Counted from the stretch's first letter, positions 40,790 to 62,798 are shown. The stretch is 64,000 nt of DNA from a virus (IMGVR_UViG_3300030012_004234:6786-70785); one strand, 5' to 3'. Program-made: numbers and translations. Notes: generated from the sequence alone by a model not told the origin.

Positions 40790-42388
40790 TTATAAATCAT
40801 TCATATCTGAAATAAAGACTTTTCCGTAGAATTCAGGTCTTATCATCTTCTTAGCATATCTAGTCATGATACCTTTTCTTGGAGTGAAGGTCTCAGGATC
40901 GTATACTAGAGGAGTCATAAGTAATGGTATATACGGTGAGTAAACCGCTCCAGTTTCTAAGAATTGTGAACCTCTATATCCCATAAGAATAATATTCTCA
41001 GTCATATAAGGGTTTTTGTAAACTCTGAATCTGTTAGCTAAGCTTCCTACTCTTTGTACACCAAAGTTGAAATCAGCCTGATCTCCGTCTGTATTAGCTG
41101 CATATCCTGGAATAGATTCTAGAATAGTAGCAACGTTTGGAGAACATACTAAGAAGTTCGCACCACCTCTAAGAGTTTTTTGGTGAATCTTATTAGATAC
41201 TTTTTGGATTTTAGTTCCTAAAGTTTGGAACCACTGTCCTTGAGTATTATAAAATCCTGGACTTAAAGTAGCCCAAGCTGTACCATTCCAAACTTTGTTT
41301 GAAACGACAGACCATCTCTCAGTAGTTACTGCGTCATTAATAAGCATGTCTAGGATCTCAAGATCAATCTCCATTGAGATATACTCACTCAATAAAGAAG
41401 TTAACTCAGCCTCAGCGTCGATGCTGTGGTATGCGTTAAGATCTTGAGCGAATTCTGGAGTCCATTGTGCTTTTAGTTTTCTAGTTTTAGCAACAATTGC
41501 TTCACTAGCTAATCTTACGTCGATAGACGGGATTTTAATAGATGTGTCAACAGCAGCAGTTGAATTTGCTTCGAAGTCACCTCTTGCGTTATCATCTGGT
41601 TGTACGTGATATAATACAGTAGAAGCAGGATTCTTAACTGTTAGGTTAGATGCAGTTACAACGAAAGTAACGTCATCACCAGATACAGTAGTTAATTCTG
41701 GGTTACTAGTAATATCTACAGAAGCAGAAAATAATCTAAATGCTCTAACTGCTTTATAATCAGGTCTTGCACCAGCGGCTTTTCCTGACATATCAGCTGT
41801 AACAGTTCTAAATTCTGATACGATTAGATCATCATTGTATCCAATTGAAGAAGAAACAGCAGATCCAGTAGTAATAGTTTCAGTGTGTGAAGCTGAATTT
41901 ACTGTATATCCGAATTGTCCAGCGCCATAAAGACCACCAGAAACTTCCTCATCAACAGACATTTTGTTAGAAGCAGAAGATACATTACCATACAAGTTAT
42001 CACCAGCTGTTCTTCCTCCTACAGAGTCTCCATATTTGAAGTCTAGGTAGAATACAAGTCCTGAAGGTAAATTCATTGGTTGTACAGAAACGAAATCTTG
42101 AGCAACGATTTGAGCAAATACTTTTCTAACTAAAGGTAGAGCTACACCAGCCCAGTTCTCACCAGCTCCAGCAGTGAAAGTAGCAGACCCTCCGTGACCG
42201 GAAGTGTTTGCTTCAGCAACGATTTGTTTAGCTTGGTTTTCTAAGATAACAGCCATGTTATTTTTGACTCTATTATCTTCGATACCTTCTAACAAACCAG
42301 ATGCTTCCCACTTAGAAGCTAATTTTTCAGAATCCTTTAGCATGCTCTTATAAGTATTTGAGCTCTCTAATAGGTTGTTAATTTCCAT
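40790..42388 (-). CDS. gp23: Major capsid protein (T4 gp23-like)
   Basis: VSVQPMNLPSGLVF, AKTRKLKAQWTPEFAQDLNAYHSIDAEAEL, YSPYIPL, FTPRKGIMTRYA; likely propeptide cleavage at IVAE59|A. Confidence 0.98.
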   Translation of the reverse strand: MEINNLLESSNTYKSMLKDSEKLASKWEASGLLEGIEDNRVKNNMAVILENQAKQIVAEANTSGHGGSATFTAGAGENWAGVALPLVRKVFAQIVAQDFVSVQPMNLPSGLVFYLDFKYGDSVGGRTAGDNLYGNVSSASNKMSVDEEVSGGLYGAGQFGYTVNSASHTETITTGSAVSSSIGYNDDLIVSEFRTVTADMSGKAAGARPDYKAVRAFRLFSASVDITSNPELTTVSGDDVTFVVTASNLTVKNPASTVLYHVQPDDNARGDFEANSTAAVDTSIKIPSIDVRLASEAIVAKTRKLKAQWTPEFAQDLNAYHSIDAEAELTSLLSEYISMEIDLEILDMLINDAVTTERWSVVSNKVWNGTAWATLSPGFYNTQGQWFQTLGTKIQKVSNKIHQKTLRGGANFLVCSPNVATILESIPGYAANTDGDQADFNFGVQRVGSLANRFRVYKNPYMTENIILMGYRGSQFLETGAVYSPYIPLLMTPLVYDPETFTPRKGIMTRYAKKMIRPEFYGKVFISDMNDL

Positions 42389-42413: not shown

Positions 42414-43619
42414 TTATTTAATAATACCGGCTAATTTTTGCATTCTTCTAACAGTTTCAGAAACTTCATTAATTACTTCTGGTTTACCAGATGCAGTAGT
42501 TCCTGTTGCTTTAGATGCCATGCCTAGTTTAGTCTTAGCTTCTTTGATATTGTTTTTAGTTTCTTTTTTACTAACAACATTATCTGAAACTGTTTCATAA
42601 ACTAATTTAACCTCTTTTACAGTTTCTGCTTTATCAAAAGCAGCTATAATGTTAACCTTTTGACTTTCAGAAAGGTCGTTTGATTTAAAGATTTTGTTAA
42701 CGTAAAGTAATTTTGAATTTAGAATATTTACTTCATTCAATTCACTTTTAAGAGTTTTGATAGTCTCTAAAGCTTGAGCTAGTTCTGATTTGCTTTCTTC
42801 TAATGCTTGTTCTTCAGCATCTCCGATAACACCTTCAGCTTCTTTCTCAACTTCATTGAAATCCTCTTCACCGTCTTTATCTTCGTTAATATTTACGTCT
42901 ACCTTCTGTCTGTGGTTATCAGCATTAGGTTTAGCATTGAACTCGTCTAATTCTTCTTCACTTACTGAAGATTCAAGTTCTCTAATTAACTCATCAAGAT
43001 CGATTTCTTCCTCGTCCTCACCAGGCATGTCCATTGGTTCTTCTACAGCATCAGGCTCATCACCCATACCTTCGATATCACCAGCATCCATATCCATAGC
43101 AGGCTCTTCGTCAGCGCCCATTTCTTGACTAATAATATCTCTAATTAAGTCTTTGAATTGATCTACACTTAAATCAGAAATATCCTCATCACCTTTAGGC
43201 TCGTCTTCAACCTCCGCTTCGTCCTCAGATTCGTCTGAGTCATCCTCCGCTTCGTTTTTTTCATCGTCAGCATGCATTGCTTCGTCTTTATTGTCTCCGT
43301 GAGCTTCCTCCATATCGTCGTCATGTTTAGCTTCTTCTACTTCTTCAAGAGATTCTTCCATGTTATCTTTCTCCTTCTTAGGAGCTTCTTCCATGTTGTC
43401 TTTCTCTTTCTTAGGAGCCTCTTCCATAGTTTCGTCGTCTTTTTTCTTAGGCGCTTCTTCTATTTTAGAATCTTCCATTTCTTGTAGTTTTGCAGCTAAC
43501 ATATCTTTTAAATGTGGAGTTAGAGTTTCTTCTAATGCTTCCTTAGCGTTAGCAATAGCAGCAGCTCTTACAGACTTAGCTTCAGCAATAGCTTGCTTAA
43601 ATAAATCTTTGTTTGCCAT
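42414..43619 (-). CDS. Prohead scaffolding/core protein (gp22 analogue)
   Basis: Highly acidic, coiled-coil, between protease and MCP; LNEVNILNSKLLY, FDKAETVKEVKL, RMQKLAGI; many [LMVI]xE sites. Confidence 0.85.
   Translation of the reverse strand: MANKDLFKQAIAEAKSVRAAAIANAKEALEETLTPHLKDMLAAKLQEMEDSKIEEAPKKKDDETMEEAPKKEKDNMEEAPKKEKDNMEESLEEVEEAKHDDDMEEAHGDNKDEAMHADDEKNEAEDDSDESEDEAEVEDEPKGDEDISDLSVDQFKDLIRDIISQEMGADEEPAMDMDAGDIEGMGDEPDAVEEPMDMPGEDEEEIDLDELIRELESSVSEEELDEFNAKPNADNHRQKVDVNINEDKDGEEDFNEVEKEAEGVIGDAEEQALEESKSELAQALETIKTLKSELNEVNILNSKLLYVNKIFKSNDLSESQKVNIIAAFDKAETVKEVKLVYETVSDNVVSKKETKNNIKEAKTKLGMASKATGTTASGKPEVINEVSETVRRMQKLAGIIK
43353..43460 (-). repeat. 33-36 bp tandem coding repeat (MEEAPKKEKDN) x3 in scaffold
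   Basis: ttcttccatgtt.tctttctc.ttcttaggagc at 43353 and 43386, with a degenerate third unit from 43419. Confidence 0.9.
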
Positions 43620-45251: not shown

Positions 45252-47591
45252 TTATTTGTTCTTTTTTTCGTTAATACCAAAAATATTCTTCTTAGGACCT
45301 TCTTGGGCAATAGGTAATGATCTAACTGGTTTAATGTTAGGTAAATTTAATCCTCCAGTAAAGGCATTTTTCATAACAGGTCTTAAATCTTTTTTAAATG
45401 CGCTTTCGATAGCTGGAGCTAAAAATCCTCCTACTTTTAATCCTTCATCATTTTTTATTTCTCCTAACTTATCGTAAACTTTCTGTATCTTTTCTCTAGT
45501 TCTTTCGTAAAATGATTCTATATCATTTACTACATTTTGAAGATCGATAACGGATTGTTTCATTCCTGCAAAGCTTTCGTAGTCATCTGCTATTTTAGCT
45601 AGTTGATTAGTAGCTGCTTCTTCAATCATATCATCTTTTAAACTTTTTTTGATAATACCTTTGATAGCTTCTTTAAGTTGTACAGATTGTTTTTCTGTGA
45701 TTCTATATTCTTCAACTTCTGCTTCTGGTTCTACTACTTCATCATCTGCTAAATCTTTTAAGAACTCTAATGCTCTTTTTAATTTAGGATTAGCAAATAA
45801 AGCAGGTTGTTCTTTATCGTCTACTTGGTCTACAAACTTTAAAATAGCTTGAGCCATAGTTTTAGGATTTTTAACGTTAGTATTTATTCTAGTTAAAGTA
45901 GCTGAAGGAATTTCTTCTTCATCAACTCTATCGTAATTAGCATCTACAAATAGATCAAAATGAAATACAGGATCTTTTCCGAAATCTCCATCCATGATAT
46001 CATTTTTATGTGTTTTGATATAATCCTTAATAAGAGAATCTATACCGGGTATCTCTCCATACTTTTCTTTTATCTTACCAATATGAGATGCTAATACTTC
46101 TTTTAATACTTTTCTTGTATCAGCAGCACCGCCTGTATAGTTGCTAGGAGAATCAGTTTTAACTTTACCTTTTCTATCGATATTCATTACTTCATCTTTA
46201 CCCATAGCTTTTTTTATAGCTTTATCTTTTGCAGCCATATAATCATCAGAATCTATATCTCCGTCTCCGTCATGATCTTTACCTTTTCCTTCAGAAGCCA
46301 TATAGATAGGTTCGATAGCTTTTGTAATTTCTTGTGCAATTGCTAGTTCTTCATTCTTATCTTCTTCTTGATATTGTTCTTCTAAGTTTTCTGAAATAGA
46401 ATAAATAGCATCTAGCTCAGATGTACCGTCTTGTTCATCCATCAAGGCCTCAGCTTCTGTAAATAATTCGTTAAATACTCCACGTACTACATCTTCATCA
46501 TGACTAGATGATAATTTACTTTCTAAGAATTTTTTAATATCTGGAAATGTTGCTACGTATTTTTGTTTAAAAGGTATACTTTCTTCTTCGTTCTTTTTTC
46601 TTTTGTGACCGTGATGTGAAGATGTAATAACTTCTAATTCGTTTATAGGTATATTTTTTACTGTCTTACTTCCTTCTTTAAAAAATACATCGTAATGAGT
46701 TACTGTTCCATCTTCTAATAAAGTATGCTCTCCTTCTAAACAAATACCATGTCCATATTTTTCATGTAATACATGATTAGCACAATCGTGCTCAATTTCT
46801 TTCTCTTCGTCTTTTTTATCAATAGTTTCCTTAATATAATTAACTAGATTCTTTTTAAACATTTTTAATGCTTTGTTTCCTTCTTCTTCATCTTCATGTT
46901 TAAAAGCATCAATTGCAGTATTGAGGTCTTGATTAGGTGTGTGATAATTTACATCTTCTAATGAGTTATAAATCTTCATCATATGCTCTACCTCTTCTCC
47001 TGATGCTCCTTTACCAGGATCTACTTCCGGAATAGCCATTGCAGCTCTAATCATTCCTCCGTAATCAAAGTTTTCAGAATATTTATCTCCTGGTTGATAT
47101 GCTTCTTTTAAAGTAGCTTTTTTCATTCCGTTGAAAGTATCAACGTTATTTTTCTTACCTACTGGGACCATCTGATCGTTTTTATTTACTTTATCAGATT
47201 CGTTACCAACTAAGTTTATATAATGAGAAGGATTTTTTTCTAAGTTGTCTTTTGCTTTCTTTTCTGCTTTAAAAAAGTCGTCAGCATTAAGAGTCATATG
47301 AGGCATTAATCCAGCTGCTTGCAACTCAATTCTTATTCCTCTATCTAAAGCATCTAATGAATAAGTTAAGGCAGGTCTTTCATCGTATGATTTTGTTTTA
47401 GTAGGTTTTTTTTCAGCCTTAGCTTCAAAAACTAATCCTCTGTTTTTAAGAATTTGTACTGAATCGTCAAATCCATTGAATTGAGATATAAAATCAGGGA
47501 ACTGTTGTCTCATCTGTCTAACAAATTCTCCTTTAGCCATCTTGCCTTCTTGGACGGCTCTAAATTTTTCAGTTGCTGTTTGTTGTCTCAT
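45252..47591 (-). CDS. Modular prohead-core/internal polyprotein-like protein
   Basis: Unrelated segments joined at LKE|A, IKE|T, KNE|E, ASE|G, KDE|V, LKE|V, VDE|E; includes His-rich and DxDxDG modules; TATTTATA at 47595-47602. Confidence 0.65.
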   Translation of the reverse strand: MRQQTATEKFRAVQEGKMAKGEFVRQMRQQFPDFISQFNGFDDSVQILKNRGLVFEAKAEKKPTKTKSYDERPALTYSLDALDRGIRIELQAAGLMPHMTLNADDFFKAEKKAKDNLEKNPSHYINLVGNESDKVNKNDQMVPVGKKNNVDTFNGMKKATLKEAYQPGDKYSENFDYGGMIRAAMAIPEVDPGKGASGEEVEHMMKIYNSLEDVNYHTPNQDLNTAIDAFKHEDEEEGNKALKMFKKNLVNYIKETIDKKDEEKEIEHDCANHVLHEKYGHGICLEGEHTLLEDGTVTHYDVFFKEGSKTVKNIPINELEVITSSHHGHKRKKNEEESIPFKQKYVATFPDIKKFLESKLSSSHDEDVVRGVFNELFTEAEALMDEQDGTSELDAIYSISENLEEQYQEEDKNEELAIAQEITKAIEPIYMASEGKGKDHDGDGDIDSDDYMAAKDKAIKKAMGKDEVMNIDRKGKVKTDSPSNYTGGAADTRKVLKEVLASHIGKIKEKYGEIPGIDSLIKDYIKTHKNDIMDGDFGKDPVFHFDLFVDANYDRVDEEEIPSATLTRINTNVKNPKTMAQAILKFVDQVDDKEQPALFANPKLKRALEFLKDLADDEVVEPEAEVEEYRITEKQSVQLKEAIKGIIKKSLKDDMIEEAATNQLAKIADDYESFAGMKQSVIDLQNVVNDIESFYERTREKIQKVYDKLGEIKNDEGLKVGGFLAPAIESAFKKDLRPVMKNAFTGGLNLPNIKPVRSLPIAQEGPKKNIFGINEKKNK

Positions 47592-52203: not shown

Positions 52204-53337
52204 CTATTTAATTTTTTCAAACTTTCCATCTTTCAACAAATATATATTAGAAGAACGGTAAGCTACAGCTTTAGTCATTGCAATAGCTTCATTATTTTGA
52301 ATACCGAACATTGTTCTATCTCCTCTATAAGCTGCTGTGAGGTAAGGAGTATACTCTCCTTTAGGTATATTTGGTGGAAGAAGTACATGTTCTCCAGATA
52401 ATTCATATTTATTATCTCCTATCTTTTCAAACTCTACTTCACCTTGAATGACTATATTTACATTTTCTTTACTATTAGGTTTCCCATATTCAGGTCCAAA
52501 GATCAAAAGTTTAATAAGTTCTTTATCTTTAATTGGAGCAATAAATCTTGTTTTATTGGGAAGTCCTTCTAGGTTATTATCAACCAGAAATTTTTTGAGG
52601 CCGTTATTAAAAGCTACAACTTCTGGATGATCAGCATAAGCGGTGTATCCGCTCCATCTTATAAAGTCAGATGCAGCTGGTCCTTTACTTCCTGCTTTTT
52701 TATGAGAAATAAATACTACAGGGTTACCTTTTTCGTCTAATAAATTAAAATCAGATTTAGGCATTCCTGATTGAGTTTCTGCAGAACCTATTTTGTATGC
52801 TTTTCCGTTGACTACTACGTCAATAGTACCTCCTTCAACATCTATGAGGCTGTTTAATTTTTTTTTAAGAATGTATAGATTCTCATCTTCTACTACTGTT
52901 CCTGATCCTGCTCCTTTACCTCCAAATTCTGGTGTTTTTAAAAGATCATTTAGTGAAACAGAATTGTTTTCAGAATCTATAAAGAAAGGAAAATTATTAA
53001 CTCTACTGCCTGCTATTTTTCTAATACCGTCTAAATCTCTATTTTTAAATAGATCGGCGTATTCTTCTGAGGCAAATTTTAATTTTACTTCACTACCATC
53101 AGTGTTGTAGAAAGAATCATTCGACTGTACCATATCATAAAACTTAACCAATCTAGGAGCCCCTCTTTTAATAAGTTCAGAAAATTTAAGTACTCTATAT
53201 CCCTTATCTAAAACCTCTATTAGGTCTATTCCAAACATAGACTCAAATAACCTTAAATCATCTTCGTTATTAAGGTCAGGATATCCTTTTTTGGTTCTAT
53301 ATGACCATTCTAATATTACTCTATCTATAAGATTCAT
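52204..53337 (-). CDS. PD-(D/E)xK restriction-endonuclease-like protein with N-terminal leader
   Basis: E.E...PKSDF..(10)..FISHK...F.RWSG; leader MNLIDRVILE.WSYR..KGYPD. Confidence 0.6.
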   Translation of the reverse strand: MNLIDRVILEWSYRTKKGYPDLNNEDDLRLFESMFGIDLIEVLDKGYRVLKFSELIKRGAPRLVKFYDMVQSNDSFYNTDGSEVKLKFASEEYADLFKNRDLDGIRKIAGSRVNNFPFFIDSENNSVSLNDLLKTPEFGGKGAGSGTVVEDENLYILKKKLNSLIDVEGGTIDVVVNGKAYKIGSAETQSGMPKSDFNLLDEKGNPVVFISHKKAGSKGPAASDFIRWSGYTAYADHPEVVAFNNGLKKFLVDNNLEGLPNKTRFIAPIKDKELIKLLIFGPEYGKPNSKENVNIVIQGEVEFEKIGDNKYELSGEHVLLPPNIPKGEYTPYLTAAYRGDRTMFGIQNNEAIAMTKAVAYRSSNIYLLKDGKFEKIK

Positions 53338-53618
53338 TAGTCTCTTTTTAGATCTTGTTCTGGCATATCGATATCATCAGGATTTTTTTCAAAGCTTGTA
53401 TTAGTTAAAGTATATTCAACTTTTCTTACATTTTTACCATCTTTGTCTCTGACATATACCTCTACTCCTGCAATTGCTCCTAATTTAATTAGATCATCAA
53501 GTTGATCTCCTGATATTCCTATACCGGTAGGGGCCATTTCTTCATCTAATTTAGATTCATCCATAGTGGCCACTTTATTTTCAATTAAAAATTTTCTAAG
53601 ATCAAAATTATTTTTCAT
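53337..53618 (-). CDS. Small putative internal head protein with MKNNFDLRKFLIEN leader
   Basis: Shared leader followed by MDE/LDE sites. Confidence 0.7.
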   Translation of the reverse strand: MKNNFDLRKFLIENKVATMDESKLDEEMAPTGIGISGDQLDDLIKLGAIAGVEVYVRDKDGKNVRKVEYTLTNTSFEKNPDDIDMPEQDLKRD

Positions 53619-53628: not shown

Positions 53629-54771
53629 TTATGCTTCAGGTTCTTCAGCTGGTTCTTCGAAATCTATAGGCTCATCAGTTAAATCTGCTCCTCCTTCTTC
53701 TCCTCCTTCAGGATCAGGTGCATCTAAATCAGTTCCTGCTCCAGTTCCAGCATCAGCTCCAGGAAAATCTCCTCCTCCACCAGTATCAGCAGAATCTACG
53801 TCTGTTCCTGCTTCTCCTGTTTCTCCGCCAGATGCTAATGGTGCTTGTCTATATAATACTTCTAATTTATCTAATGCTTGTTGGTATTCTGAAATTTTAT
53901 TTAAATAGTATCTTTTACCCATTATTTGAGCTTGAAAACCATCTCCTAACCATTTAAGTATATAATCTTGACCGTTTTTCAAATTTACTCTGAATGATGT
54001 AGGTCTAGGAGAAACCCAATCAATACTTTCAACAAATTCTTTGAAATCTTCAGTTTGAAGTTTAACAATAGCATTCTTTAATGTAGGAAATTTATTAAGC
54101 ATTATATCAGTTGAATCTTCTAATACTGTTTCTTTAGATGCTTTTGGATCTGGTTGTTCTTCAGGTTCAGGTTCTTGTTCGTTTACTAAGTCTGATAGGT
54201 TTTCATTAAGTTCGTATCTTAAATAAGCTCCTACAGTATTATTAAGTTTACTACCTTCATTCAGTACTTCTTCCATTGCTCTTCTTATCTTAAATCTTTC
54301 GTACTGTTCAGGGTGATTTTTTCTAAGGTAAGATTGCATCTTTCTAAAGTTAGTCTTTATTAATTCAAAAAGATCTTTAGCTTCTTGATCCGACTTAACA
54401 GAATCTCTACCCATCAAAGTTTTAATATCTTTCAAAATTTTAGCATACCTATTGTAAAGGTTTTCAAAAGACGGCAGTCTTATTATTGCATGTTTATATG
54501 AATTAGTCTCTTTATTATAAGCTGTGGTATAATAATAAGTCTCATATTCTTTATCTACATAATCTCTAGTAGGATCTCCAGGAGCAGGTCTTCCTTTATA
54601 TTCTACATTTTTTTTCAAAGATGTTTTTATATTATTAGGAATATCTTTCCAAAAAATTACTCTTTTGTCCTCTAGTTCATCATCAAGATCAAAACTTTCT
54701 CTATCATCTTGTTCTATTAGAGCCTCTGTGTAAGCTTCTAAAATTATATTTTTAAGATCCTTTTTTTTCAT
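53629..54771 (-). CDS. Two-domain putative head protein with leader and acidic Gly-rich tail
   Basis: MKKKDLKNIILE|A; LNE|G, LNE|N, VNE|Q linker between domains; low-complexity acidic C-terminus. Confidence 0.6.
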   Translation of the reverse strand: MKKKDLKNIILEAYTEALIEQDDRESFDLDDELEDKRVIFWKDIPNNIKTSLKKNVEYKGRPAPGDPTRDYVDKEYETYYYTTAYNKETNSYKHAIIRLPSFENLYNRYAKILKDIKTLMGRDSVKSDQEAKDLFELIKTNFRKMQSYLRKNHPEQYERFKIRRAMEEVLNEGSKLNNTVGAYLRYELNENLSDLVNEQEPEPEEQPDPKASKETVLEDSTDIMLNKFPTLKNAIVKLQTEDFKEFVESIDWVSPRPTSFRVNLKNGQDYILKWLGDGFQAQIMGKRYYLNKISEYQQALDKLEVLYRQAPLASGGETGEAGTDVDSADTGGGGDFPGADAGTGAGTDLDAPDPEGGEEGGADLTDEPIDFEEPAEEPEA

Positions 54772-57700
54772 TTTTTCCTTCTAATGCTAATTTATCAATA
54801 ATAGGTTGTTTTTCTTCTGAATCTAAATAATGGAATGCTTTAGATAAGTAGTCTTTAGACAATATTAATTTACTTTGCCACCAATTAGGAAAATCAACTT
54901 CTCCATCAAATTGATCATACTTAGCTAATTTTTTATATAACTTAGCTGCAAAAGTTGCTGCTTCATATGCTGTGCTTTTAAGCATACCGGGTTCATCATC
55001 TTGATGACCTATATCAGTATCTTCATCAATATTCTTTCTTCTGGGATACTGAGTAGACATATCTTTTAAGTCTCCTATGACTGATTGCATTGCTCTAGCC
55101 ATTCTTGGGAAATCATCGGCAGGTATTTGGATATACTCTCTACCGTAAGTTATCTGCACCATTAATCCTCTTTTACCTCCAAAGAATCTTTTTATTTGTA
55201 GACCACCTTTATCGTATAGTTCAGTACCTTCTTTAAGTTCTTTCTCTTCCATCGGATAATCTTCATCATCTAAATCATCATACCCATAATCTTCCAATCT
55301 ATCTACTTCACTACCTAATGTAGTATCATATCTATTATTTGAGTAAACCATATTGAATACGCCATAGCCGTCCATTCTTGATAATTCATTAGGAAAGTTC
55401 TGTCTAACTATATCTCTAGCTTCTTCTCCAAGCTCTTCTACTCGTCCAACAATATCTTTTAATCTATCTAAAGCTTCATCTTGATCTGCATTTTCTTGAA
55501 CGTTAGGATCTAATTCTTGACCTCTACCTACATTTGCTACAGCTTTTTCTAAAGCAGCTTCTACTTGTTTTTTCTTTTTAGTGAGTGATTTTAAGTGATC
55601 CATTACTGAATGTTTACCTGGTTCAGAACCTCCTTGGTACATATGGTCACCGCCTTTTTCTTTTCTTAGAGCATTAAGCTCTTTCATTTTATCAACTATT
55701 AATTTATGAACTTTTTGTAATTCAGATACTGAGTATTTTCCTTTTGGTAGTTCTTTATCTTCAATTGCTTCGTTGCGGTCATCTCCAAATCCTCTTAACA
55801 TATCTTTTAAAAGTTCAGCTGCTTTTTTGATCATACCTACATCTTGTCCTACTTCACCGGATTGTAGCATTTTTAAAATATTTAAAAGCTTTATCTTTTC
55901 TTCTTTTCCTATATAATATAAGTCACCCTCTTGTAGTGTAAGGGTATCCTCTTCTGATGATCTAATTACAGCTTTAAGTATTTGTTTTAATTTACTAAAT
56001 TCTTCACCAGTTACTGGGTCTTTATCATACCCTAATCTTGCTACAAAGCTTTTTATAAAATCTATATCACCGTCATCTAAGTAAACTAAATCGCCTTCTT
56101 TAACTAATTTATCGAGATACTTAGCCTGTCCTGCATGACCTTTAGAAGATTTTTTTAAGGACTTACTCATATCTTTTAACTTCTTTTTTTCAGCTTTAGA
56201 TAATTCAGCTGATGCTTCTTTCATAGATGATTTCATCCATGTAGCTAGTATTTGTCTAGCTGTATTTCTATCCAAACCGAATTCAGCTCGTAAATAAGGA
56301 ACAGCACCAAACATGTTAGTTACACCTGAATCCCTTAATTTGTTTAAATATTCGAAGTAATATTCTGGATTATCTATTTCTTCTTCGTTATATTGAGTTA
56401 CTGGAGGTACTTTAGATCTTTGTTTATCTTTTGGATCACTTAATCTAGCTCCTTTTTCTCTAGCAGCTTTTGTTAATCTACCTTTAACCAAGTTACCTGA
56501 AGCGGTAAAATAATGACCGGAAGGTGCTCCTTTAGTTTCATTATTTTTTTTAATATTAATAAGTTTTTGGATTTTACTTATTCGATCTTCTTTAACTTCT
56601 ACCTCATTAAATTTAATAGGTATAAAAATTTCAAATGCTCTTATATCTGTACCCTTCTCACCTTTACCTTGACCTACATCTAATCCTTCCTGTTTCATTA
56701 AGAAGTCTTTTACAAATTCTGTTACATATTTAAGAGCAACTTTAGGTTTAGCAGTTCGATTTAAACCGGTTGGTCCATCAATAGCTACGTATAACGTTGT
56801 ACTATCTTCTTTGAAAGCTCCTTTTTGACCAGTAGGGTATATCCTGAATCCTATATTATCTCGAATCTTAGATAGGTCAGACTTGGCAAAAAAGTTATCG
56901 ATTGCTTTTAATATATTATTTACTCCGGCTTTCTGTCTAGGTGAATATTTTTCAAACTCTGTTCCAATTCTATCCATAAAAGCATATCTGTTAAATAAAA
57001 TAGTAGATTTAGGTTCATAAATTTTATCTGCTTTATTTTTGCCAAAACCAAAAAATTCTTTTACTCCCTGACTAGCATCTTTAATCTTTTCTATATGACC
57101 GTCTAAATAATCAACTCTGTCAACTGGTAGACCCATGCTTGAAACTTGGTCTTTAATAGTAGCAGATACGTATTGAGCATCATTTAAAATTTTTGTAGCA
57201 TAAGAAGAATCTTTTAACGCTCTTATTTCCATTTTAAATAATACATCATGTAATTTAGCAAGTCTTATAACTTCTTCTTTATTTAGTTCTCCATAATTAC
57301 CGTCTACAACATCTTGTATAAACGATTTAGCACCAGGACAAATTTTATAGTATTTAGTTTGATAACCATAAACGTTTACGTTATACTTATCAGCAGCATA
57401 TTCTCCTTCTTTTATATTTTTTTTCCTTCTTTCTTTAGCAATCATTGCTTGTATCTTTTTGATTTTGTCTCTTTCAGGATGCTTTTCTAGTCTTTCAGCT
57501 TCTTTAGCATCTTGAAATTCTTTATCAGACATAGTTTCATTTTTAAATCTATCTCCTCTGTTAGCTGGGTTGCCCATAATATTGTTTAGTACGCTTTTTA
57601 ATTCTCTATTTATAACGTCTTGATGTAGTAAAGGCTTTCCATCAGCTTTGATTCCAACCGGAGCTAATTTTTTATCGAAAACTCCTCCTCCATATTCAAA

Positions 57701-58198
57701 TTGATCTAAAAATAGATAACCATCTTCGATTCTAAATTTATACTCTTCCTCAGAGCCTGTGCTAAAAATTATTTCAATACTGAAAGAATCGGGAGTTATA
57801 TTAACAGCTCTTGCGCTTTTGACACCAAGCCCCATTTCATTTTGTACTTTTGCTACAGCTTTTCCTGTAATTTTTGCTACTTTAGCAGTTTCATTTTGAC
57901 CTAAATCACTTACAGCAGACGATTCAGTATCTCCTTCTAATTCATTTTTTAAATCTTCTGGTTCAACTAAATCTACATCTATGCCTTTATCTACTAATTT
58001 TTCTGCTTTATCACTATTCGAGGTTCTTACTCTTCCTTCTTCAGAAAGCATTTTTTTATATGATTCTTTAAGAATATTTAATTTTGCAGTTTTTTCTTTT
58101 AAATCTTGAACGGAAAGATTTTTATAGGACCCGTCTTTGATGCTTTTTAAAGTAAACTCGCATTTAGCCAATCGGGTTTTTATTTCCTCGTAGGTCAT
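54752..58198 (-). CDS. 1148-aa modular polyprotein-like putative internal head protein
   Basis: About 14 compositionally distinct segments joined at x-[KNQD]-E sites; TATTTATA at 58221-58228. Confidence 0.65.
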   Translation of the reverse strand: MTYEEIKTRLAKCEFTLKSIKDGSYKNLSVQDLKEKTAKLNILKESYKKMLSEEGRVRTSNSDKAEKLVDKGIDVDLVEPEDLKNELEGDTESSAVSDLGQNETAKVAKITGKAVAKVQNEMGLGVKSARAVNITPDSFSIEIIFSTGSEEEYKFRIEDGYLFLDQFEYGGGVFDKKLAPVGIKADGKPLLHQDVINRELKSVLNNIMGNPANRGDRFKNETMSDKEFQDAKEAERLEKHPERDKIKKIQAMIAKERRKKNIKEGEYAADKYNVNVYGYQTKYYKICPGAKSFIQDVVDGNYGELNKEEVIRLAKLHDVLFKMEIRALKDSSYATKILNDAQYVSATIKDQVSSMGLPVDRVDYLDGHIEKIKDASQGVKEFFGFGKNKADKIYEPKSTILFNRYAFMDRIGTEFEKYSPRQKAGVNNILKAIDNFFAKSDLSKIRDNIGFRIYPTGQKGAFKEDSTTLYVAIDGPTGLNRTAKPKVALKYVTEFVKDFLMKQEGLDVGQGKGEKGTDIRAFEIFIPIKFNEVEVKEDRISKIQKLINIKKNNETKGAPSGHYFTASGNLVKGRLTKAAREKGARLSDPKDKQRSKVPPVTQYNEEEIDNPEYYFEYLNKLRDSGVTNMFGAVPYLRAEFGLDRNTARQILATWMKSSMKEASAELSKAEKKKLKDMSKSLKKSSKGHAGQAKYLDKLVKEGDLVYLDDGDIDFIKSFVARLGYDKDPVTGEEFSKLKQILKAVIRSSEEDTLTLQEGDLYYIGKEEKIKLLNILKMLQSGEVGQDVGMIKKAAELLKDMLRGFGDDRNEAIEDKELPKGKYSVSELQKVHKLIVDKMKELNALRKEKGGDHMYQGGSEPGKHSVMDHLKSLTKKKKQVEAALEKAVANVGRGQELDPNVQENADQDEALDRLKDIVGRVEELGEEARDIVRQNFPNELSRMDGYGVFNMVYSNNRYDTTLGSEVDRLEDYGYDDLDDEDYPMEEKELKEGTELYDKGGLQIKRFFGGKRGLMVQITYGREYIQIPADDFPRMARAMQSVIGDLKDMSTQYPRRKNIDEDTDIGHQDDEPGMLKSTAYEAATFAAKLYKKLAKYDQFDGEVDFPNWWQSKLILSKDYLSKAFHYLDSEEKQPIIDKLALEGKNEKKGS

Positions 58199-58234: not shown

Positions 58235-58861
58235 TTAGTCTTCCCAAATAACATTTTTAAACTTTTCCGGGGAAAGCCCAAAAAAATCAGTACGCCATTG
58301 AGTCTGGTCAAAGAAATTTAAATCATACCATAGATCCTTCTTTTTCCATAAAATTTTAGCTATATCATCCCAGTCTTTAGATAGAATAAACTGTTCTATT
58401 TCTAGCTTTTTTTCTACAACTGCATTATAGTCAAACGAATCCCATTCATAATGAAAAACTTCAAATACTGCATCTTCTGATACGTAGTCGATGGAGATGT
58501 CTATACCCCACTTAGGCTTCATTTTTACTAATTTATATAACATAGGATTAGTCACAGCAAACTTTTCTAATTGTAGTTTAGCTGTACCATTAAATCCTTT
58601 TCTTTCAAATATGTCTGAGTGATTAATATGAGCTCCTTCTCTTTTGTCCCATACTATCCAATCTTGTCTTAAACAATCTTCATGTCTTCTTTCTATAGGA
58701 TCGTATCCATTAGGAATTAAATAAGCTTGTTCAGCTTTTGTTAAATGGTAACCATTCTGATCAAATAGATCAACGCAATTAGGGTCACGTAAAATATCTA
58801 CCTCTAAGGTAGGTTCTGTATAATACGCTTGTTTAGAAAAAACTGTGTTTGCTATCTTCAT
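58235..58861 (-). CDS. Hypothetical protein
   Basis: 208-aa globular, aromatic-rich ORF (FDQNGY, KPKWGIDISIDY). Confidence 0.6.
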   Translation of the reverse strand: MKIANTVFSKQAYYTEPTLEVDILRDPNCVDLFDQNGYHLTKAEQAYLIPNGYDPIERRHEDCLRQDWIVWDKREGAHINHSDIFERKGFNGTAKLQLEKFAVTNPMLYKLVKMKPKWGIDISIDYVSEDAVFEVFHYEWDSFDYNAVVEKKLEIEQFILSKDWDDIAKILWKKKDLWYDLNFFDQTQWRTDFFGLSPEKFKNVIWED

Positions 58862-59535
58862 TTCTTTTTACCGCTTTTCATATTAGCACACCAGTGGTAC
58901 ATTTTACCTTTTTCACCACCATATTTCTTAGCTTTAGCTCTTAGACTACTTACTGAGCCTTTACAGCTAGCTCCTGCTTTTTTAACTCTTCCAGGTCTGC
59001 TTTTACCTTTCTTTTTGCCGTCCCTAAAATTTTCAGTATTTATATCTTCTTTCTTCATTCTCTGAGTCTTTCTTTTCGAAGCCTCTTTTCTAGAAGTTAT
59101 ATATTTTAAAGCTGCTTTTAATCTTTTTTTCTTTTCAGGGTCTTTAGTTCTGCCGACTGCTGCTCTAACTCTTTGGTGTATAAGGTTAATAACTTGTGAT
59201 TGTCTTGCATGTGATTTATTTTTGAAAGTTTTTTTACTTAATGTATCAACTACATCCTGTCTAGTACTAAACTTTACTTTTACTGTATCAGATGGATCTT
59301 CATCTGTATATAACCTTCTACTAGAACCTTTAGGCTTTTTTCCTGTACCTTTTTTTGGATCGGCTTCATTTATAGCTTCTCTGATTAATTTAGCTAGTTC
59401 ATTTTTATTAGAAAGATAAGCAGCAATTGCCATTTGACGCTTTTTTTTCTTAGACTTACCTTTGAATTGAGGAGCCTTAGATTTAGTGAAATCGTCTACA
59501 TAATCTCCTGCGTCTGATTTTTTAGTTAAAGGCAT
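58858..59535 (-). CDS. Highly basic three-module protein
   Basis: Modules DF..SKAPQFKGKS..RQMAIAAY | DPKKGTGKKPKGS.RRLYTDE | NFRDGK..HWCANMK, separated by KNE/INE/KKE/NTE. Confidence 0.6.
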   Translation of the reverse strand: MPLTKKSDAGDYVDDFTKSKAPQFKGKSKKKKRQMAIAAYLSNKNELAKLIREAINEADPKKGTGKKPKGSSRRLYTDEDPSDTVKVKFSTRQDVVDTLSKKTFKNKSHARQSQVINLIHQRVRAAVGRTKDPEKKKRLKAALKYITSRKEASKRKTQRMKKEDINTENFRDGKKKGKSRPGRVKKAGASCKGSVSSLRAKAKKYGGEKGKMYHWCANMKSGKKK

Positions 59536-59722
59536 TTCTTTTAATTAACTCTCTTTTTATAATATTCTTTTTTCTACTGTATGAATTACTCTCATACATC
59601 TTTTTTAATTCTTCTGTAGATGTATTATGAGGAGTATAATGCTTCCAAGTAAATTTATTAGTCATTCTGCCTCTGGCATCTCTAACATATTCTTTAGTAC
59701 TTGCTTTTAACTTTGCTGGCAT
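59522..59722 (-). CDS. Small basic hypothetical protein
   Basis: The ORF track starts at 59740, but the ATG at 59722 overlaps the upstream stop (TAATG) and is the likelier start (MPAKLK...). Confidence 0.55.
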   Translation of the reverse strand: MPAKLKASTKEYVRDARGRMTNKFTWKHYTPHNTSTEELKKMYESNSYSRKKNIIKRELIKRNAFN

Positions 59723-61302
59723 TATTTTTGTCCTTTCCAAATTTCACCTCTTCTACATCTAACTACTGCTCCAGAAGCATAAGCTGATGGCCAGGTGTCA
59801 TATTTACGTTTAGCAATTCTAGTACATCTGTCGTCTTTTTCCATTATAACTTCTTTACCTTGTGCTTCATGAATTAAACCTGTGATAAGGTTAGCTATAT
59901 CTTCTTTAGTTAATTCTTTTACTGGTTTATAACCGGATCCGTATGGAGCAGATTTACCATCTTGAGGATTAGCAGTTTCTTGCTTTTTACTTTTTTCAGC
60001 TTCTTTTCTTTTTTCGTACTCTTTTTGAGAACTCTGTTTTAACTGGTCTATCTTCTTATAATAGTCTCTAATTTTAGTATAACGGCTTTCACTCATTCCT
60101 TTATCAAATAAATCTATTTCTAGACCTGCTAAATCAAAATCATATTCATCTGCTATAGCAATGACTAATTCCATTGCAGCTTCTCTTGCGCTAATGTCTC
60201 CATCAATCATTAGATCTTCTACTGCATCTTTGATATAATTCATTACACCTCTACCTTCGTTTATTTTTTTATTTTTTTTCATACCTGTTGTTTTAAAATG
60301 ATCAGCGTAATTTTTTTTGGATATCTCCATACCTTTATCTTCATCCATTTCAGATTGACCATAAGGTGAATTAACCCAAGCATCAGGGTCAACATCATTC
60401 ATATTAATATCTGAGTGTGATGCTTTAGCTTCTGATCCAAACAAATGTTTAAGTATCGATAGTGTATTCATTTTATCTACTCCTCCGACACTAAATGAAT
60501 GAGTTTGATCAGTTTTATGTTTAGCAGGGTCAAATGGAAACTTAAAATCATATATTCTTATTCCGCTTTTTTCTTCTCCAGAACTAACATCTCCGATAGG
60601 GACTATTTCCCATTCATGTTGAACTTTATCAGAAGGATTAGATTTTCTTCTTACTACGAAATCACCTTCATCAGCTATTTTTTCAATTTCAGCTTCTAAG
60701 TCTTTAAATTTCATAACTAGACTACCGTGTCTAGAACCTAGTACATATTCATTCATAAGATCTTCGTTATCTTTTACTGAAGAGTCTACTATATCTATAT
60801 CTTCATTTCTTACATAAACCATAGCATCATAAGTCATAGCTCTAGCTTCAGGCCCAGAAATATAAAATATTACATTTCCTGCACCGTCATTATCAACTAT
60901 ATCAACTTTGTGCCCTCCTACGTCATATACATCGTTCTCTAAAGCACTATCTATTACTGCTACAGCTTTTTTATAGTCTCTTCTTTTTACTTTTATATAT
61001 TCTTTATTACCTTCGTTTACCATCACTTCTTTTTTTACTGTTGCTTTTTTAGTATTTTTAACAACTGTCTTTCCTTTAGCACCTGCTTTCTTTTTCTTTC
61101 TTGCTGTAGCTGCTCTTTGATTTTTTGTTAAAGATTGAGCTTTAGCTTTCGGTAAACATCTATCAGGATTTTTTTTATTCTTAGATGTACCACATGGACC
61201 TGCTATATTACCAGAAGAAGAAATACGTACCCATTTTTCTTTTTTAAACCAGTCTCTTAATGACTCTAAAGTTAATTCGTGTATTTGTTTATTAGTAATC
61301 AT
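59722..61302 (-). CDS. Modular polyprotein-like protein with DUF5872-like terminal modules
   Basis: N-terminal LRDWF.KEKWV..PCG..CLPK and C-terminal WPSAYASG..V.CR; internal modules bounded by VNE|G, MNE|Y, MDE|D, INE|G, MSE|S, KQE|T, VKE|L. Confidence 0.65.
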   Translation of the reverse strand: MITNKQIHELTLESLRDWFKKEKWVRISSSGNIAGPCGTSKNKKNPDRCLPKAKAQSLTKNQRAATARKKKKAGAKGKTVVKNTKKATVKKEVMVNEGNKEYIKVKRRDYKKAVAVIDSALENDVYDVGGHKVDIVDNDGAGNVIFYISGPEARAMTYDAMVYVRNEDIDIVDSSVKDNEDLMNEYVLGSRHGSLVMKFKDLEAEIEKIADEGDFVVRRKSNPSDKVQHEWEIVPIGDVSSGEEKSGIRIYDFKFPFDPAKHKTDQTHSFSVGGVDKMNTLSILKHLFGSEAKASHSDINMNDVDPDAWVNSPYGQSEMDEDKGMEISKKNYADHFKTTGMKKNKKINEGRGVMNYIKDAVEDLMIDGDISAREAAMELVIAIADEYDFDLAGLEIDLFDKGMSESRYTKIRDYYKKIDQLKQSSQKEYEKRKEAEKSKKQETANPQDGKSAPYGSGYKPVKELTKEDIANLITGLIHEAQGKEVIMEKDDRCTRIAKRKYDTWPSAYASGAVVRCRRGEIWKGQK

Positions 61303-61681: not shown

Positions 61682-62260
61682 TTATAATTGCTTACGGATA
61701 TGTTCAGAGTAACCTTTTAAATCTTTTAGTATTTTTTCTTTAGTATTTTTTGACATTCCTCCCCAATCTTCGACATCTCCTGCTTCAGTTACAAATGATA
61801 ATTGGTCATTAACTGAGTTAGATACCCAGTTTTCAATATCTTCTAAAAAGCTAACTATATTACCGCTAATCATTTTTCTTTCATACTCTTTATATAGTCC
61901 GGCTTTTCTTAATGAAGCTTCCATCTCTACAGTACAAGGATCAAAACAAAACCCATGAATTTTAAACATCTTCTTAGCTAGATGATGTCCCATAGGGCCT
62001 CCACATTTAGGGCAAGATAGAGGAACTCTTAATGCTTTTTTAGCTCCATCAAGTTTAGTTATATTTTGCTTAATACCATTTTTTATAGTCCAAGTTTTTC
62101 CTCCTTCTTCCCAGATTTCTCCTTCTTGATATCTTGACTTATTTTTTTGATAACCAGATTGTATTTTAGTTTTTTTAGTAAAATCTTTATTTACTATATT
62201 TCTAACTCTCTGAATATCACTTTCTTTAAATTCTTTTTTTAAGAGTGATTCATTACTCAT
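61682..62260 (-). CDS. Zinc-finger-containing hypothetical protein
   Basis: EGEIWEE.GKTWTIKNG, CPKC...CFDPC. Confidence 0.65.
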   Translation of the reverse strand: MSNESLLKKEFKESDIQRVRNIVNKDFTKKTKIQSGYQKNKSRYQEGEIWEEGGKTWTIKNGIKQNITKLDGAKKALRVPLSCPKCGGPMGHHLAKKMFKIHGFCFDPCTVEMEASLRKAGLYKEYERKMISGNIVSFLEDIENWVSNSVNDQLSFVTEAGDVEDWGGMSKNTKEKILKDLKGYSEHIRKQL

Positions 62261-62798
62261 AACCTAATTCTTTTAATTTTTCTATAACGTGATCAACATT
62301 TCCATTTTTACACCTAATTGCTATACCTCCTTTAGATGCCCATTCATTTATATTAGATTTTTTGTCATCTATTAATATACTATTTTCGTTTGAATACCTC
62401 TGTTTATCAGCTGAATATGCAAAAATAGTTTTAGGTTTAGGCTGTAAATTATTTCTTACCCAAAGGTTTTTACCAAGCCTAGACGTATCGTTTCTCGAAG
62501 GAGAAGTTAAAAGATGAGGTTTGTATGGTTTTATAAAATCCCATAATCTTTTTCCTTCAGGCATCCAATCCATACCTACCCAAAACCTTACACCTATTTT
62601 AAAATCTATAAGATGCCAAAACTGTTCTAACCCGTATTGCTTTTCATAAGCTTGAGGACCAGTCCCAGTAAAATGTTCAAACCTTGATTCAAAATCAGTC
62701 AATACTCCATCCATATCACAATATATTTGATAAGGGGGTAACTCTTTTTGTTCCGGAATTGGATATGCTTCTAATAATTTTACTATACTATTCTCCAT
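62253..62798 (-). CDS. HAD-family 5'(3')-nucleotidase-like protein
   Basis: IYCDMDGVLTDF, LTSP, GK..WV, ILIDD, W...GG; leader MENSIVKLLE|A. Confidence 0.85.
   Translation of the reverse strand: MENSIVKLLEAYPIPEQKELPPYQIYCDMDGVLTDFESRFEHFTGTGPQAYEKQYGLEQFWHLIDFKIGVRFWVGMDWMPEGKRLWDFIKPYKPHLLTSPSRNDTSRLGKNLWVRNNLQPKPKTIFAYSADKQRYSNENSILIDDKKSNINEWASKGGIAIRCKNGNVDHVIEKLKELGYE

What the first reader, a model, noticed from the sequence alone, without database searches (positions are those of the whole stretch)
54752..58198. 1148-aa bead-on-a-string polyprotein of about 14 small modules
Seen: segments of roughly 20-160 aa with abruptly different character are delimited by FKNE|T, NIKE|G, GVKE|F, EVKE|D, KNNE|T, QYNE|E, SMKE|A, LVKE|G, TLQE|G, DRNE|A, NVQE|N, ELKE|G and NIDE|D. 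At least two resemble small proteins I recall as stand-alone phage genes: YFEYLNKLRDSGVTNMFGAVPYL..EF (~56216-56383, DUF5049-like) and TEL...IKRFFGGKRGLMVQIT..YIQI (~55022-55228). Inference: an array that captures small genes in frame between conserved N- and C-terminal anchors, with protease sites as linkers.
Basis: partly seen in the sequence, partly recalled or inferred. Interest (0 to 1): 0.85.

Follow-up and report, generated by a model that had tools for sequence, protein, structure and literature searches.

The report
Protease-jointed phage head cargo polyprotein
A 1148-residue late gene of an uncultured marine T4-like phage is a chain of about a dozen small unknown protein modules that related phages reorder, drop and swap at joints matching the cutting motif of the phage's own head protease, so it is probably loaded into the capsid and cut into many small proteins, though no cut has been measured.

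Summary
The ORF is real but lies on the minus strand (54752-58198, 1148 aa). All 13 listed sites exist. The total count of hydrophobic-x-Glu motifs is at background; what is far above chance is where they sit. In 258 homologues the P0001 modules occur in permuted orders behind one invariant N-terminal domain. Of 359 unique junction 10-mers, 225 have Glu at P1 and L/I/V/M/F at P3, against 2.5% per position. AlphaFold confidence falls below 50 at 11 of 13 sites. The phage encodes a T4 gp21-type S77 protease, and its capsid protein aligns Glu59 with T4's cleavage residue Glu65. Module 606-661 is a free-standing 49-99 aa ORF in 60 of 80 viral loci and embedded in 20. Module 991-1059 was embedded in 9 of 9. 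There is no conserved C-terminal anchor. Best reading: a capsid-loaded cargo polyprotein processed by the head protease, a new variant of T4 internal-protein targeting. Cleavage and packaging are inferred, not shown. This scan has noted the same kind of protein before on other DNA. My literature searches found no description.

The parts
54752..58198 (-). 1148-aa polyprotein ORF (P0001), 130 kDa, stop codon included
57536..58198 (-). Module 1 (res 1-221): invariant N-terminal anchor. It has a helical hairpin, then a helix plus five-stranded sheet domain. It starts MTYEEI. Conserved L43-K44-E45 motif.
   Evidence: Found in 208/260 proteins and always first. E45 is invariant in 100 sequences. pLDDT about 90 for res 101-160. 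T4 IPII/IPIII start MKTYQEFIAE.
57407..57535 (-). Module 2 (res 222-264), basic helical, 5 kDa
   Evidence: 62 targets. 29/36 start contexts have hydrophobic-x-E nearby.
57056..57406 (-). Module 3 (res 265-381), confidently folded helical domain
   Evidence: 106 targets. pLDDT 91-97. HSP ends cluster at 376-387.
56588..57055 (-). Module 4 (res 382-537), rare alpha/beta module
   Evidence: 5 targets. Both borders are V/I-x-E in 3/3 contexts.
56537..56587 (-). Segment 5 (res 538-554), 17-aa basic spacer, probably linker rather than module
   Evidence: pLDDT < 50 across 534-564
56384..56536 (-). Module 6 (res 555-605), basic, starts TKGA, ends VTQYNE
   Evidence: 58 targets. Start contexts: E at P1 in 17/17.
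56216..56383 (-). Module 7 (res 606-661), LRDSGVTNMFGA domain that also exists as a free-standing small gene
   Evidence: Weak DUF5049 hit.
56096..56215 (-). Module 8 (res 662-701), basic helical, ends DKLVKE
   Evidence: 107 targets. End contexts: 25/36 E, 31/36 hydrophobic P3. Start contexts 39/49.
55928..56095 (-). Module 9 (res 702-757), acidic
   Evidence: 12 targets. Borders 3/3.
55769..55927 (-). Module 10 (res 758-810)
   Evidence: 35 targets. Start contexts 15/15.
55493..55768 (-). Module 11 (res 811-902), helical hairpin, ends DPNVxE
   Evidence: 183 targets. End contexts 50/54 E, 53/54 hydrophobic P3. pLDDT 80-90.
55229..55492 (-). Module 12 (res 903-990), very acidic (net -17)
   Evidence: 160 targets. 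Start contexts 89/90. Charge.
55022..55228 (-). Module 13 (res 991-1059), small beta plus helix module starting GTEL
   Evidence: 123 targets. Start contexts 58/58 E, 56/58 hydrophobic P3. Embedded in 9/9 viral loci.
54755..55021 (-). Module 14 (res 1060-1148), DLDVGHQDDEP...EVDFPNWWQ module. It is last here but mid-protein in most homologues.
   Evidence: 196 targets. At least 583 IMG/VR loci. In the best 80 loci, 64 complete ORFs of 400-1243 aa and none stand-alone. Also in Flavobacterium phage immuto gene 191.
53629..54771 (-). Downstream 380-aa gene (P0003). It has its own leader MKKKDLKNIILE|A and overlaps the polyprotein by 20 nt across an A8 run. It is fused in frame to the polyprotein homologue in phage immuto.
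44336..44914 (-). Head maturation protease, Peptidase_S77 (T4 gp21 family): the proposed processing enzyme
   Evidence: Pfam E 7.3e-33. phrog_207. 34% identity to T4 gp21, E 4e-29.
40790..42388 (-). Major capsid protein (Gp23 family). Its I-V-A-E59|A aligns with the T4 gp23 maturation site L-T-E65|A.
42414..43619 (-). 401-aa ORF between protease and capsid gene with 24 hydrophobic-x-E motifs (6.0 per 100 aa): scaffold-like, used here as a contrast

Best explanation
P0001 is a capsid-cargo polyprotein of a T4-like marine phage, probably one that infects Flavobacteriia.

Shown:
- It is a late-module gene in a conserved slot upstream of the large terminase.
- It consists of one invariant N-terminal domain followed by about 12 small modules of 4-18 kDa.
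- Related phages permute, delete and exchange these modules, also with other multi-module genes of the same phage.
- Most joints carry hydrophobic-x-Glu, the recognition rule of T4 gp21-type head proteases.
- The phage encodes such a protease.
- Its capsid protein keeps that motif at the position of T4's known maturation cut.

Inferred:
- The N-terminal domain takes the chain into the prohead core. Its first residues, MTY(Q/E)EI, recall the T4 capsid targeting sequence MKTYQEFIAE.
- The activated S77 protease cuts after the junction Glu residues and frees roughly 10-14 small proteins inside the head.
- These stay with the DNA and enter the host at infection, like T4 IPI-III and Alt.

Evolution: the motif-bearing joints let modules be added or moved without harming their neighbours. 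At least one module (606-661) is shared with free-standing small genes of other phages.
For: Context:
- All genes are on one strand, in the order polyprotein, 380-aa gene, 93 aa, 377 aa, TerL, T4-type portal, S77 protease, Gp23 capsid protein.
- In 80 related viral loci the order o119-o526-o225-o208-[polyprotein]-P0003-like-TerL recurs. TerL is present in 61, the P0003-like gene in 64 and module 1 in 61.

Modularity:
- Permuted architectures such as 14-13-11-12-08, 14-12-11-13-08 and 10-13-11-12.
- HSP ends pile up at the sites.
- pTM is 0.33, and 11/13 sites lie in segments with pLDDT < 50, binomial p 1.3e-4.

Motif:
- Over 359 unique junction 10-mers, P1 is Glu in 252, P3 is LIVMF in 253, and both hold in 225. 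Background is 2.47% per position.
- With register tolerance, 331/470 contexts have the motif against 18.8% at random positions.

Protease and rule:
- gp21 cuts after L/I-X-E, and the CTS concept (PMC9026906, passages read).
- Window protease: Pfam S77, E 7e-33, 34% identical to gp21.
- Capsid protein E59 aligns with T4 E65.

Other cargo-like genes in the window:
- Three small ORFs share the leader MKNFNLRKFLxE|N.
- Modules found in P0001 homologues also sit in the window's 779-aa, 526-aa and 225-aa ORFs, with E from 1e-12 to 1e-86.

Not a degraded scaffold: motif density is 1.7 per 100 aa, against 6.0 in the scaffold-like ORF.

Module 7:
- 60 of 80 viral loci hold it as a complete 49-99 aa ORF, for example among small same-strand ORFs of a complete 170-kb T4-like genome.
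- 20 loci hold it embedded behind at least four different leaders, flanked by hydrophobic-x-E|GV upstream and SENxxE downstream.
Against: - No cleavage, packaging or ejection has been measured for this protein or any homologue. The only cultured carrier found is Flavobacterium phage immuto (4 records), and I found no virion proteome for it (listing only).
- P0001 has no canonical 10-residue leader ending in hydrophobic-x-E. Its first conserved motif is at E45.
- Four of the 13 sites in P0001 itself lack an aliphatic P3 (221, 554, 810; Tyr at 605). Junctions before modules 11 and 14 carry the motif in only 16/37 and 46/134 contexts.
- The overall motif count is at background.
- No module has a known fold or function. 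Pfam and PHROGs gave nothing above threshold. PDB by sequence gave none. Foldseek and VIA-align gave nothing above noise. So 'effector' is by analogy only.
- Mean pLDDT is only 64, so some low-confidence stretches may reflect a thin or mis-registered alignment of shuffled rows rather than true linkers.
Confidence: 0.65

Rival explanations
1. Prohead core or scaffold-like assembly protein. The chain is built into the core, chopped by the protease and its pieces leave the head before DNA packaging, as for T4 gp22, gp67 and gp68. On this reading the modules have no role after maturation.
For: T4 core proteins are cut into several fragments by gp21 and mostly expelled (PMC9026906, passage read). 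The gene lies in the head and packaging block. The invariant N-terminal domain could be an assembly element. Many segments are helical.
Against: Motifs sit at joints and are not spread throughout: 1.7 per 100 aa against 6.0 in the scaffold-like 401-aa ORF next to the capsid gene. Modules are conserved at 70-95% identity while being reordered. This argues that each is selected as a unit. Module content is hypervariable, which is unexpected for a size-determining core. Module 7 is also a free-standing gene far from the head genes in other T4-like genomes.
Confidence: 0.15
2. An uncleaved multi-domain virion or late protein. Its flexible linkers happen to favour hydrophobic-x-Glu, and the chain works whole, for example as a decoration, tether or DNA-condensing protein.
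For: No cleavage data exist. Lys, Glu and Asp are abundant (12.6%, 9.0%, 8.4%), so K/N/D-E dipeptides are common. Several junctions lack the motif.
Against: P1 Glu together with hydrophobic P3 occurs in 63% of 359 unique junctions against 2.5% background. It is kept when the upstream neighbour changes (58/58 and 56/58 before module 13). This is the specificity of the protease family the phage encodes. Order-independence of modules argues against a structure that needs a fixed arrangement.
Confidence: 0.1
3. A polyvalent protein in the sense of Iyer et al. 2017: delivered to the host as one chain and processed there, or by a peptidase domain of its own, rather than by the head protease.
For: It has many domains in one polypeptide and is phage-borne in a late-gene context, which fits the general theme (PMC5512222, abstract and passages read). 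A weak BFVD row names a 'large polyvalent protein associated domain' protein (E 1.3e-2).
Against: No zincin-like peptidase or any other catalogued conflict domain was detected in P0001. None of the 120 listed homologues has a precomputed Pfam domain. The joints match the head protease's rule instead.
Confidence: 0.07

Closest known systems
Phage T4 internal proteins IPI, IPII, IPIII and Alt: capsid targeting sequence plus gp21 processing
   Same: The phage is T4-like, with a gp20-type portal, Gp23 capsid protein and S77 protease. Cut-type motifs are hydrophobic-x-Glu. Small, diverse, fast-evolving cargo sits behind a conserved targeting element. The family N-terminus MTYQEI... resembles MKTYQEFIAE, read from NC_000866.
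   Different: T4 has one small protein per gene and a 10-residue leader cut once. Here about a dozen modules share a single 1148-aa chain behind a 221-aa anchor domain, with internal cut-type joints and permuted module order. Packaging and ejection are proven for T4 and unproven here.
Polyvalent proteins of phages and conjugative elements (Iyer, Burroughs, Anand, de Souza, Aravind 2017, PMC5512222)
   Same: There are 2-15 domains in one polypeptide. The proposal is packaging and delivery with the DNA, followed by processing into separate units (passages read).
   Different: Those proteins carry recognisable enzymatic or anti-restriction domains and usually their own metallopeptidase. P0001 has only small uncharacterised modules and no peptidase, and its joints fit the head maturation protease.
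Multiply cleaved head and ejection proteins of giant phages (phiKZ, 201phi2-1, SPN3US)
   Same: A gp21-related protease cuts after Glu in a three-residue motif. Long propeptides are cut at several sites, and many ejection proteins are packaged (PMC10052503 and PMC9026906, passages read).
   Different: There the motif has a small residue at P3 as I recall it; the passage I saw was cut before that residue. Cleavage removes N-terminal propeptides from one mature protein. No permuted chains of independent modules are described in the passages I read.
Pfam DUF5049 (for module 606-661 only)
   Same: It has the same size (57-position profile against a 56-aa module) and is the only Pfam family hit. 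The hit covers the LRDSGVTNMFGA core.
   Different: The score is 14.5 bits against a cut-off of 28.7. Only 1 of 28 relatives reaches E 7.7e-4. At best it is a distant relative.

Membership tests
T4-type capsid-targeted, gp21-processed head cargo | Phage encodes a gp21-family (Peptidase_S77) head maturation protease | tested here: met
   window 44336-44914: Pfam PF03420, E 7.3e-33; 34% identity to T4 gp21
T4-type capsid-targeted, gp21-processed head cargo | Processing sites of form L/I-X-E followed by the mature protein | tested here: met
   Tested as a sequence motif only. 225/359 unique junctions have Glu at P1 and LIVMF at P3. 9/13 sites in P0001 fit. Actual cutting was not measured.
T4-type capsid-targeted, gp21-processed head cargo | Short N-terminal capsid targeting sequence ending in a cleavage site | tested here: inconclusive
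   MTYEEIKTRLAKCE resembles T4 MKTYQEFIAE but has no hydrophobic-x-E at residues 8-10. The first conserved motif is L43-K44-E45.
T4-type capsid-targeted, gp21-processed head cargo | Protein present in proheads or virions and ejected into the host | not testable with these tools
   No proteome of a carrier phage was found.
T4-type capsid-targeted, gp21-processed head cargo | One small mature protein per gene | tested here: not met
   14 segments in one 1148-aa ORF
Polyvalent proteins (Iyer et al. 2017) | Many domains in one phage polypeptide, in a virion or late-gene context | tested here: met
Polyvalent proteins (Iyer et al. 2017) | Catalogued conflict domains and/or an own processing peptidase (MPTase) | tested here: not met
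   No Pfam family at or above its cut-off in P0001 or its modules. '-' for all 120 listed homologues.
T4 scaffold/core proteins (gp22, gp67, gp68) | Cleavage motifs spread densely along the chain; gene between portal/protease and capsid gene | tested here: not met
   1.7 motifs per 100 aa against 6.0 in ORF 42414-43619. The gene lies upstream of the terminase.
Pfam DUF5049 (module 606-661) | Score at or above the Pfam gathering cut-off | tested here: not met
   14.5 bits against 28.7. 1 of 28 relatives at E 7.7e-4.

The most novel reading that the evidence does not exclude
Marine T4-like phages keep a hypervariable 'cargo slot'. One invariant head-targeting domain carries an interchangeable string of mini-proteins drawn from a pool of a hundred or more module families. 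The head protease frees them inside the capsid, and they are injected as a ready-made kit for host takeover or anti-defence. The same modules move between several carrier genes and free-standing early genes. A phage can therefore switch a function between 'expressed after entry' and 'delivered with the DNA'.
Probability: 0.35. Interest if true: 0.85.

Novelty: new variant of a known kind. Interest (0 to 1): 0.7.

Why it matters
If the chain is packed and cut as proposed, one gene loads a dozen different small proteins into each virion. The joint motif then makes the cargo set freely re-combinable. That would extend the T4 internal-protein paradigm from single genes to polyproteins.

The family is large. 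2285 cluster representatives match at E <= 0.001, and at least 583 IMG/VR loci carry one module. It would therefore give many unannotated marine phage proteins a role.

It would also point to a big, untapped pool of candidate early-acting phage mini-proteins. A cultured relative, Flavobacterium phage immuto, makes the hypothesis directly testable.

Tried and rejected
Function of modules:
- Pfam and PHROGs on the whole protein and on 10 modules gave nothing at or above threshold.
- The PDB sequence searches gave nothing: 4 rows at E 0.48-0.94 for the module-7 profile and none for P0001.
- Foldseek against PDB had a best E of 0.1.
- BFVD gave only an uncharacterised Caudovirales protein at E 1.5e-7.
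- A second AlphaFold model of residues 1-381 (pLDDT 75) searched with VIA-align over 48,161 chains gave only generic helical-hairpin matches at Z <= 7.7, within that tool's stated noise. The beta domain was barely tested.
- The ESM Atlas look-up for module 14 gave viral hypothetical clusters of 68-119 aa at score 0.93, a lead only. For residues 96-381 it gave no usable hit.

Programmed frameshift joining the polyprotein to the 380-aa gene: considered because the genes overlap by 20 nt across an A8 run and phage immuto has them fused. The same arrangement recurs in two independent contigs, so it is not a sequencing error. But the downstream gene has its own ATG and leader, a more distant relative has cleanly separate genes, and only 3 of 259 proteins are fused (a fourth, weak row was not counted). 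I treat them as separate genes.

Origin of module 7: the tree of 58 distinct copies over 46 columns is unresolved. The embedded label needs 7 changes, but a single origin is not excluded. No direction of capture is claimed. 22 identical rows were collapsed beforehand.

Size of the module pool:
- A tile-graph clustering collapsed into one component and was discarded.
- A rough shortest-seed decomposition of the 576 stretches not covered by P0001 modules gave 246 segment families, 107 of them recurrent. It probably over-splits, so treat it as an order of magnitude.

Biases:
- The homologue sets were chosen by similarity to P0001, so module frequencies are biased.
- The module-13 search used a single sequence and reaches only close relatives. 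One further locus (L091) matched only a fragment at its end and was dropped from the count.
- The module-14 loci are the best 80 of at least 583.

Literature: searches listed no paper describing such polyproteins. The library lacks most subscription journals. The domain lists of PMC5512222 and the cleavage tables of the SPN3US papers may bear on whether some modules were catalogued.

Complex prediction, sequencing-run look-ups and RNA tools were not used.

Full report
**What is there**

The finding's coordinates hold a single ORF on the minus strand: 54752..58198, ATG start, 1148 aa, 130 kDa, pI 6.6. All genes of the window run on that strand and the window is 30% G+C. The window is most of a 70,785-base virus record.

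The protein has 103 Glu and 20 [LIVM]-x-E motifs, or 1.7 per 100 aa. That is the same as ordinary ORFs of the window. So the mere presence of such motifs is not above chance. Everything depends on where they lie.

**Context**

The ORF sits in the head and packaging block of a T4-like phage. Downstream, in order:
- a 380-aa gene that overlaps it by 20 nt
- ORFs of 93 and 377 aa
- the large terminase
- a T4 gp20-type portal (Pfam E 6e-72)
- ORFs of 284, 779 and 102 aa
- a Peptidase_S77 head maturation protease (Pfam E 7e-33; 34% identical to T4 gp21)
- ORFs of 191 and 401 aa
- a Gp23-family capsid protein (E 3e-81)

The capsid protein's I-V-A-E59|A aligns with T4 gp23's L-T-E65|A. A review states that T4 removes a 65-residue propeptide from gp23 and that gp21 cuts after L/I-X-E (PMC9026906, passages read).

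The only cultured relatives found were four records of Flavobacterium phage immuto. Its 842-aa gene 191 combines a module-1-like start, two copies of module 14 mid-protein, and the C-terminal part of the window's 380-aa gene.

**Family and modularity**

- A word-indexed search gave 212 homologues of 631-2009 aa. None of the 120 listed carries a precomputed Pfam domain.
- An exhaustive HMMER search gave 2285 cluster representatives at E <= 0.001.
- BLAST of P0001 against the first 120 homologues shows coverage that is complete for residues 1-200, falls to about 5 for 400-500, and rises again beyond 820. HSP ends pile up at 376-387, 553/554, 606-609, 664, 701-709, 806-814, 896-905, 984-990 and 1059/1060.
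- I made HMMs of the 13 segments of 25 aa or more and searched 260 fetched proteins. Module 1 is in 208, module 14 in 196, module 11 in 183, module 12 in 160 and module 13 in 123. At the other end, module 4 is in 5 and module 7 in 3.
- Module 1 is always first. The others appear in permuted orders such as 14-13-11-12-08, 14-12-11-13-08, 10-13-11-12 and 12-11-10-13, interspersed with stretches that P0001 lacks.
- Module 14, last in P0001, is mid-protein in most homologues. There is therefore an N-terminal anchor but no C-terminal one.
- A rough decomposition of the 576 uncovered stretches gave 246 segment families, 107 of them recurrent. This is an order-of-magnitude figure.

**The joints**

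In homologues the residues just before a module are kept as hydrophobic-x-Glu whatever module precedes. The table counts unique contexts in exact register.

| Junction | E at P1 | LIVMF at P3 |
|---|---|---|
| before module 13 | 58/58 | 56/58 |
| before module 10 | 15/15 | 15/15 |
| before module 6 | 17/17 | 12/17 |
| end of module 11 | 50/54 | 53/54 |
| end of module 8 | 25/36 | 31/36 |

- Pooled over 359 unique junction 10-mers (P0001 excluded), P1 is Glu in 252, P3 is LIVMF in 253, and both hold in 225. Background is 2.47% per position.
- Allowing a few residues of register slip, 331 of 470 contexts have the motif, against 18.8% of random positions. Junctions before modules 11 (16/37) and 14 (46/134) are the weak ones.
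- In P0001 itself, sites 221, 554 and 810 have K, N and R at P3, and site 605 has Tyr.

**Structure**

AlphaFold2 on the whole chain with a 100-row alignment gave mean pLDDT 64 and pTM 0.33. Confident blocks are 101-210, 270-378, 820-890 and 905-975, separated by stretches below pLDDT 50.

Eleven of the 13 sites lie inside such stretches. These stretches cover 32% of the chain, giving binomial p 1.3e-4. Site 701 is two residues from one, and site 661 is inside a helix. This fits independent beads, with the caveat that the alignment of shuffled rows is imperfect.

No fold match rose above noise, and there was no PDB relative by sequence.

**Stand-alone counterparts**

*Module 7 (606-661):*
- It has 52 small homologues of 50-97 aa at 49-81% identity. 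They align end to end and share an invariant LRDSGVTNMFG core.
- In 80 viral loci the domain is a complete ORF of 49-99 aa in 60, in ORFs of 191-265 aa in 8, and in ORFs of 421-1160 aa in 12.
- Embedded copies are flanked by hydrophobic-x-E|GV and SENxxE. They sit behind at least four different N-terminal leaders.
- Three T4-like records of 127-171 kb, each with an S77 protease, hold only the free-standing copy. Two of them are 100% complete and one 72% by CheckV's estimate. In one it lies among small same-strand ORFs far from the head genes.
- The Pfam DUF5049 label is weak: 14.5 bits against 28.7, and 1 of 28 relatives.

*Module 13* was embedded in 9 of 9 usable loci.

*Module 14* was embedded in all 64 complete ORFs among the best 80 of at least 583 loci.

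**Module traffic within the phage**

- Modules that occur in P0001 homologues but not in P0001 itself are found in other window ORFs. These are the 779-aa ORF (E 1e-43), the 526-aa ORF (E up to 1e-86) and the start of the 225-aa ORF (E about 1e-14).
- Three small ORFs share the leader MKNFNLRKFLxE|N. I tested this after an earlier first-reader note pointed to it.
- The 401-aa ORF next to the capsid gene has 6.0 motifs per 100 aa, as expected of a scaffold that is degraded. This contrasts with P0001.

**Synteny**

In the 80 module-14 loci the order o119-o526-o225-o208-[polyprotein]-P0003-like-(o377)-TerL recurs. The polyprotein therefore occupies a conserved slot with variable content.

**Interpretation**

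The best-supported reading is a capsid-cargo polyprotein:
- targeted through its invariant N-terminal domain
- cut at the joints by the S77 protease
- its pieces kept in the head and delivered with the DNA

The family N-terminus MTYQEIKDRLSKCE resembles the T4 IPII/IPIII leader MKTYQEFIAE, read from NC_000866. The match is short, and no canonical cut motif follows it. The first conserved motif is L-K-E45, with E45 invariant in 100 rows.

Shown: modularity, junction motif, protease gene and synteny. Inferred: targeting, cutting and delivery.

Rivals:
- a degraded core protein
- an uncut multi-domain protein
- a classical polyvalent protein

**Comparison and novelty**

The system works like T4 internal proteins (CTS plus gp21) and like the polyvalent proteins of Iyer et al. 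2017 (PMC5512222, passages read). It differs from T4 in packing many modules into one gene. It differs from polyvalent proteins in having no catalogued domains, no peptidase of its own, and joints that fit the head protease.

Five literature searches listed no description of such chains.

Earlier follow-ups in this scan reached the same reading for related proteins on other DNA. I did not use their conclusions as evidence. Their remark that virion proteomes of relatives support packaging could not be checked for this family.

Noticed in passing
window 54752-54771 (minus strand): The polyprotein stop and the start of the 380-aa gene overlap by 20 nt across GGAAAAAATGAAAAAAAAGG (an A6 and an A8 run). 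The downstream frame is +1. The same sequence recurs in two independent viral contigs, and phage immuto has the two parts fused in frame. Slippage could make a fusion product, but separate translation is the simpler reading.
   Followed up: partly
window 53337-53618, 44937-45245, 43761-44336 (minus strand): Three small ORFs (93, 102 and 191 aa) with unrelated bodies share the leader MKNFNLRKFLxE|N. It looks like a T4-style capsid targeting sequence ending in a protease-type site.
   Followed up: partly
window 45252-47591, 59722-61302, 58858-59535 (minus strand): The 779-aa, 526-aa and 225-aa ORFs contain modules that in other phages sit inside homologues of the 1148-aa protein (E 1e-12 to 1e-86). 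Several carrier genes therefore draw on one module pool. A second polyprotein family, starting MKTIQEKYNAILE|G, carries module 14 in 9 of 64 complete ORFs.
   Followed up: partly
window 42414-43619 (minus strand): The 401-aa ORF between protease and capsid gene has 24 hydrophobic-x-Glu motifs (6.0 per 100 aa), the densest in the window. It is probably the gp22-like scaffold. It has no Pfam or PHROG hit.
   Followed up: no
window 40790-42388, residues 62-118 of the capsid protein: The N-terminal arm of the mature capsid protein weakly matches segments inside two polyprotein-family proteins: P0233 at E 2e-4 and P0177 at E 1.4e-3.
   Followed up: no
window 62253-62798, 59722-61302, 52204-53337, 38406-38708 (minus strand): Several other late ORFs begin with a short peptide ending in hydrophobic-x-Glu within the first 8-13 residues (MENSIVKLLE, MITNKQIHELTLE, MNLIDRVILE, MKLLDILKE). 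They may be further head-targeted proteins, or this may be chance in a Glu-rich proteome.
   Followed up: no
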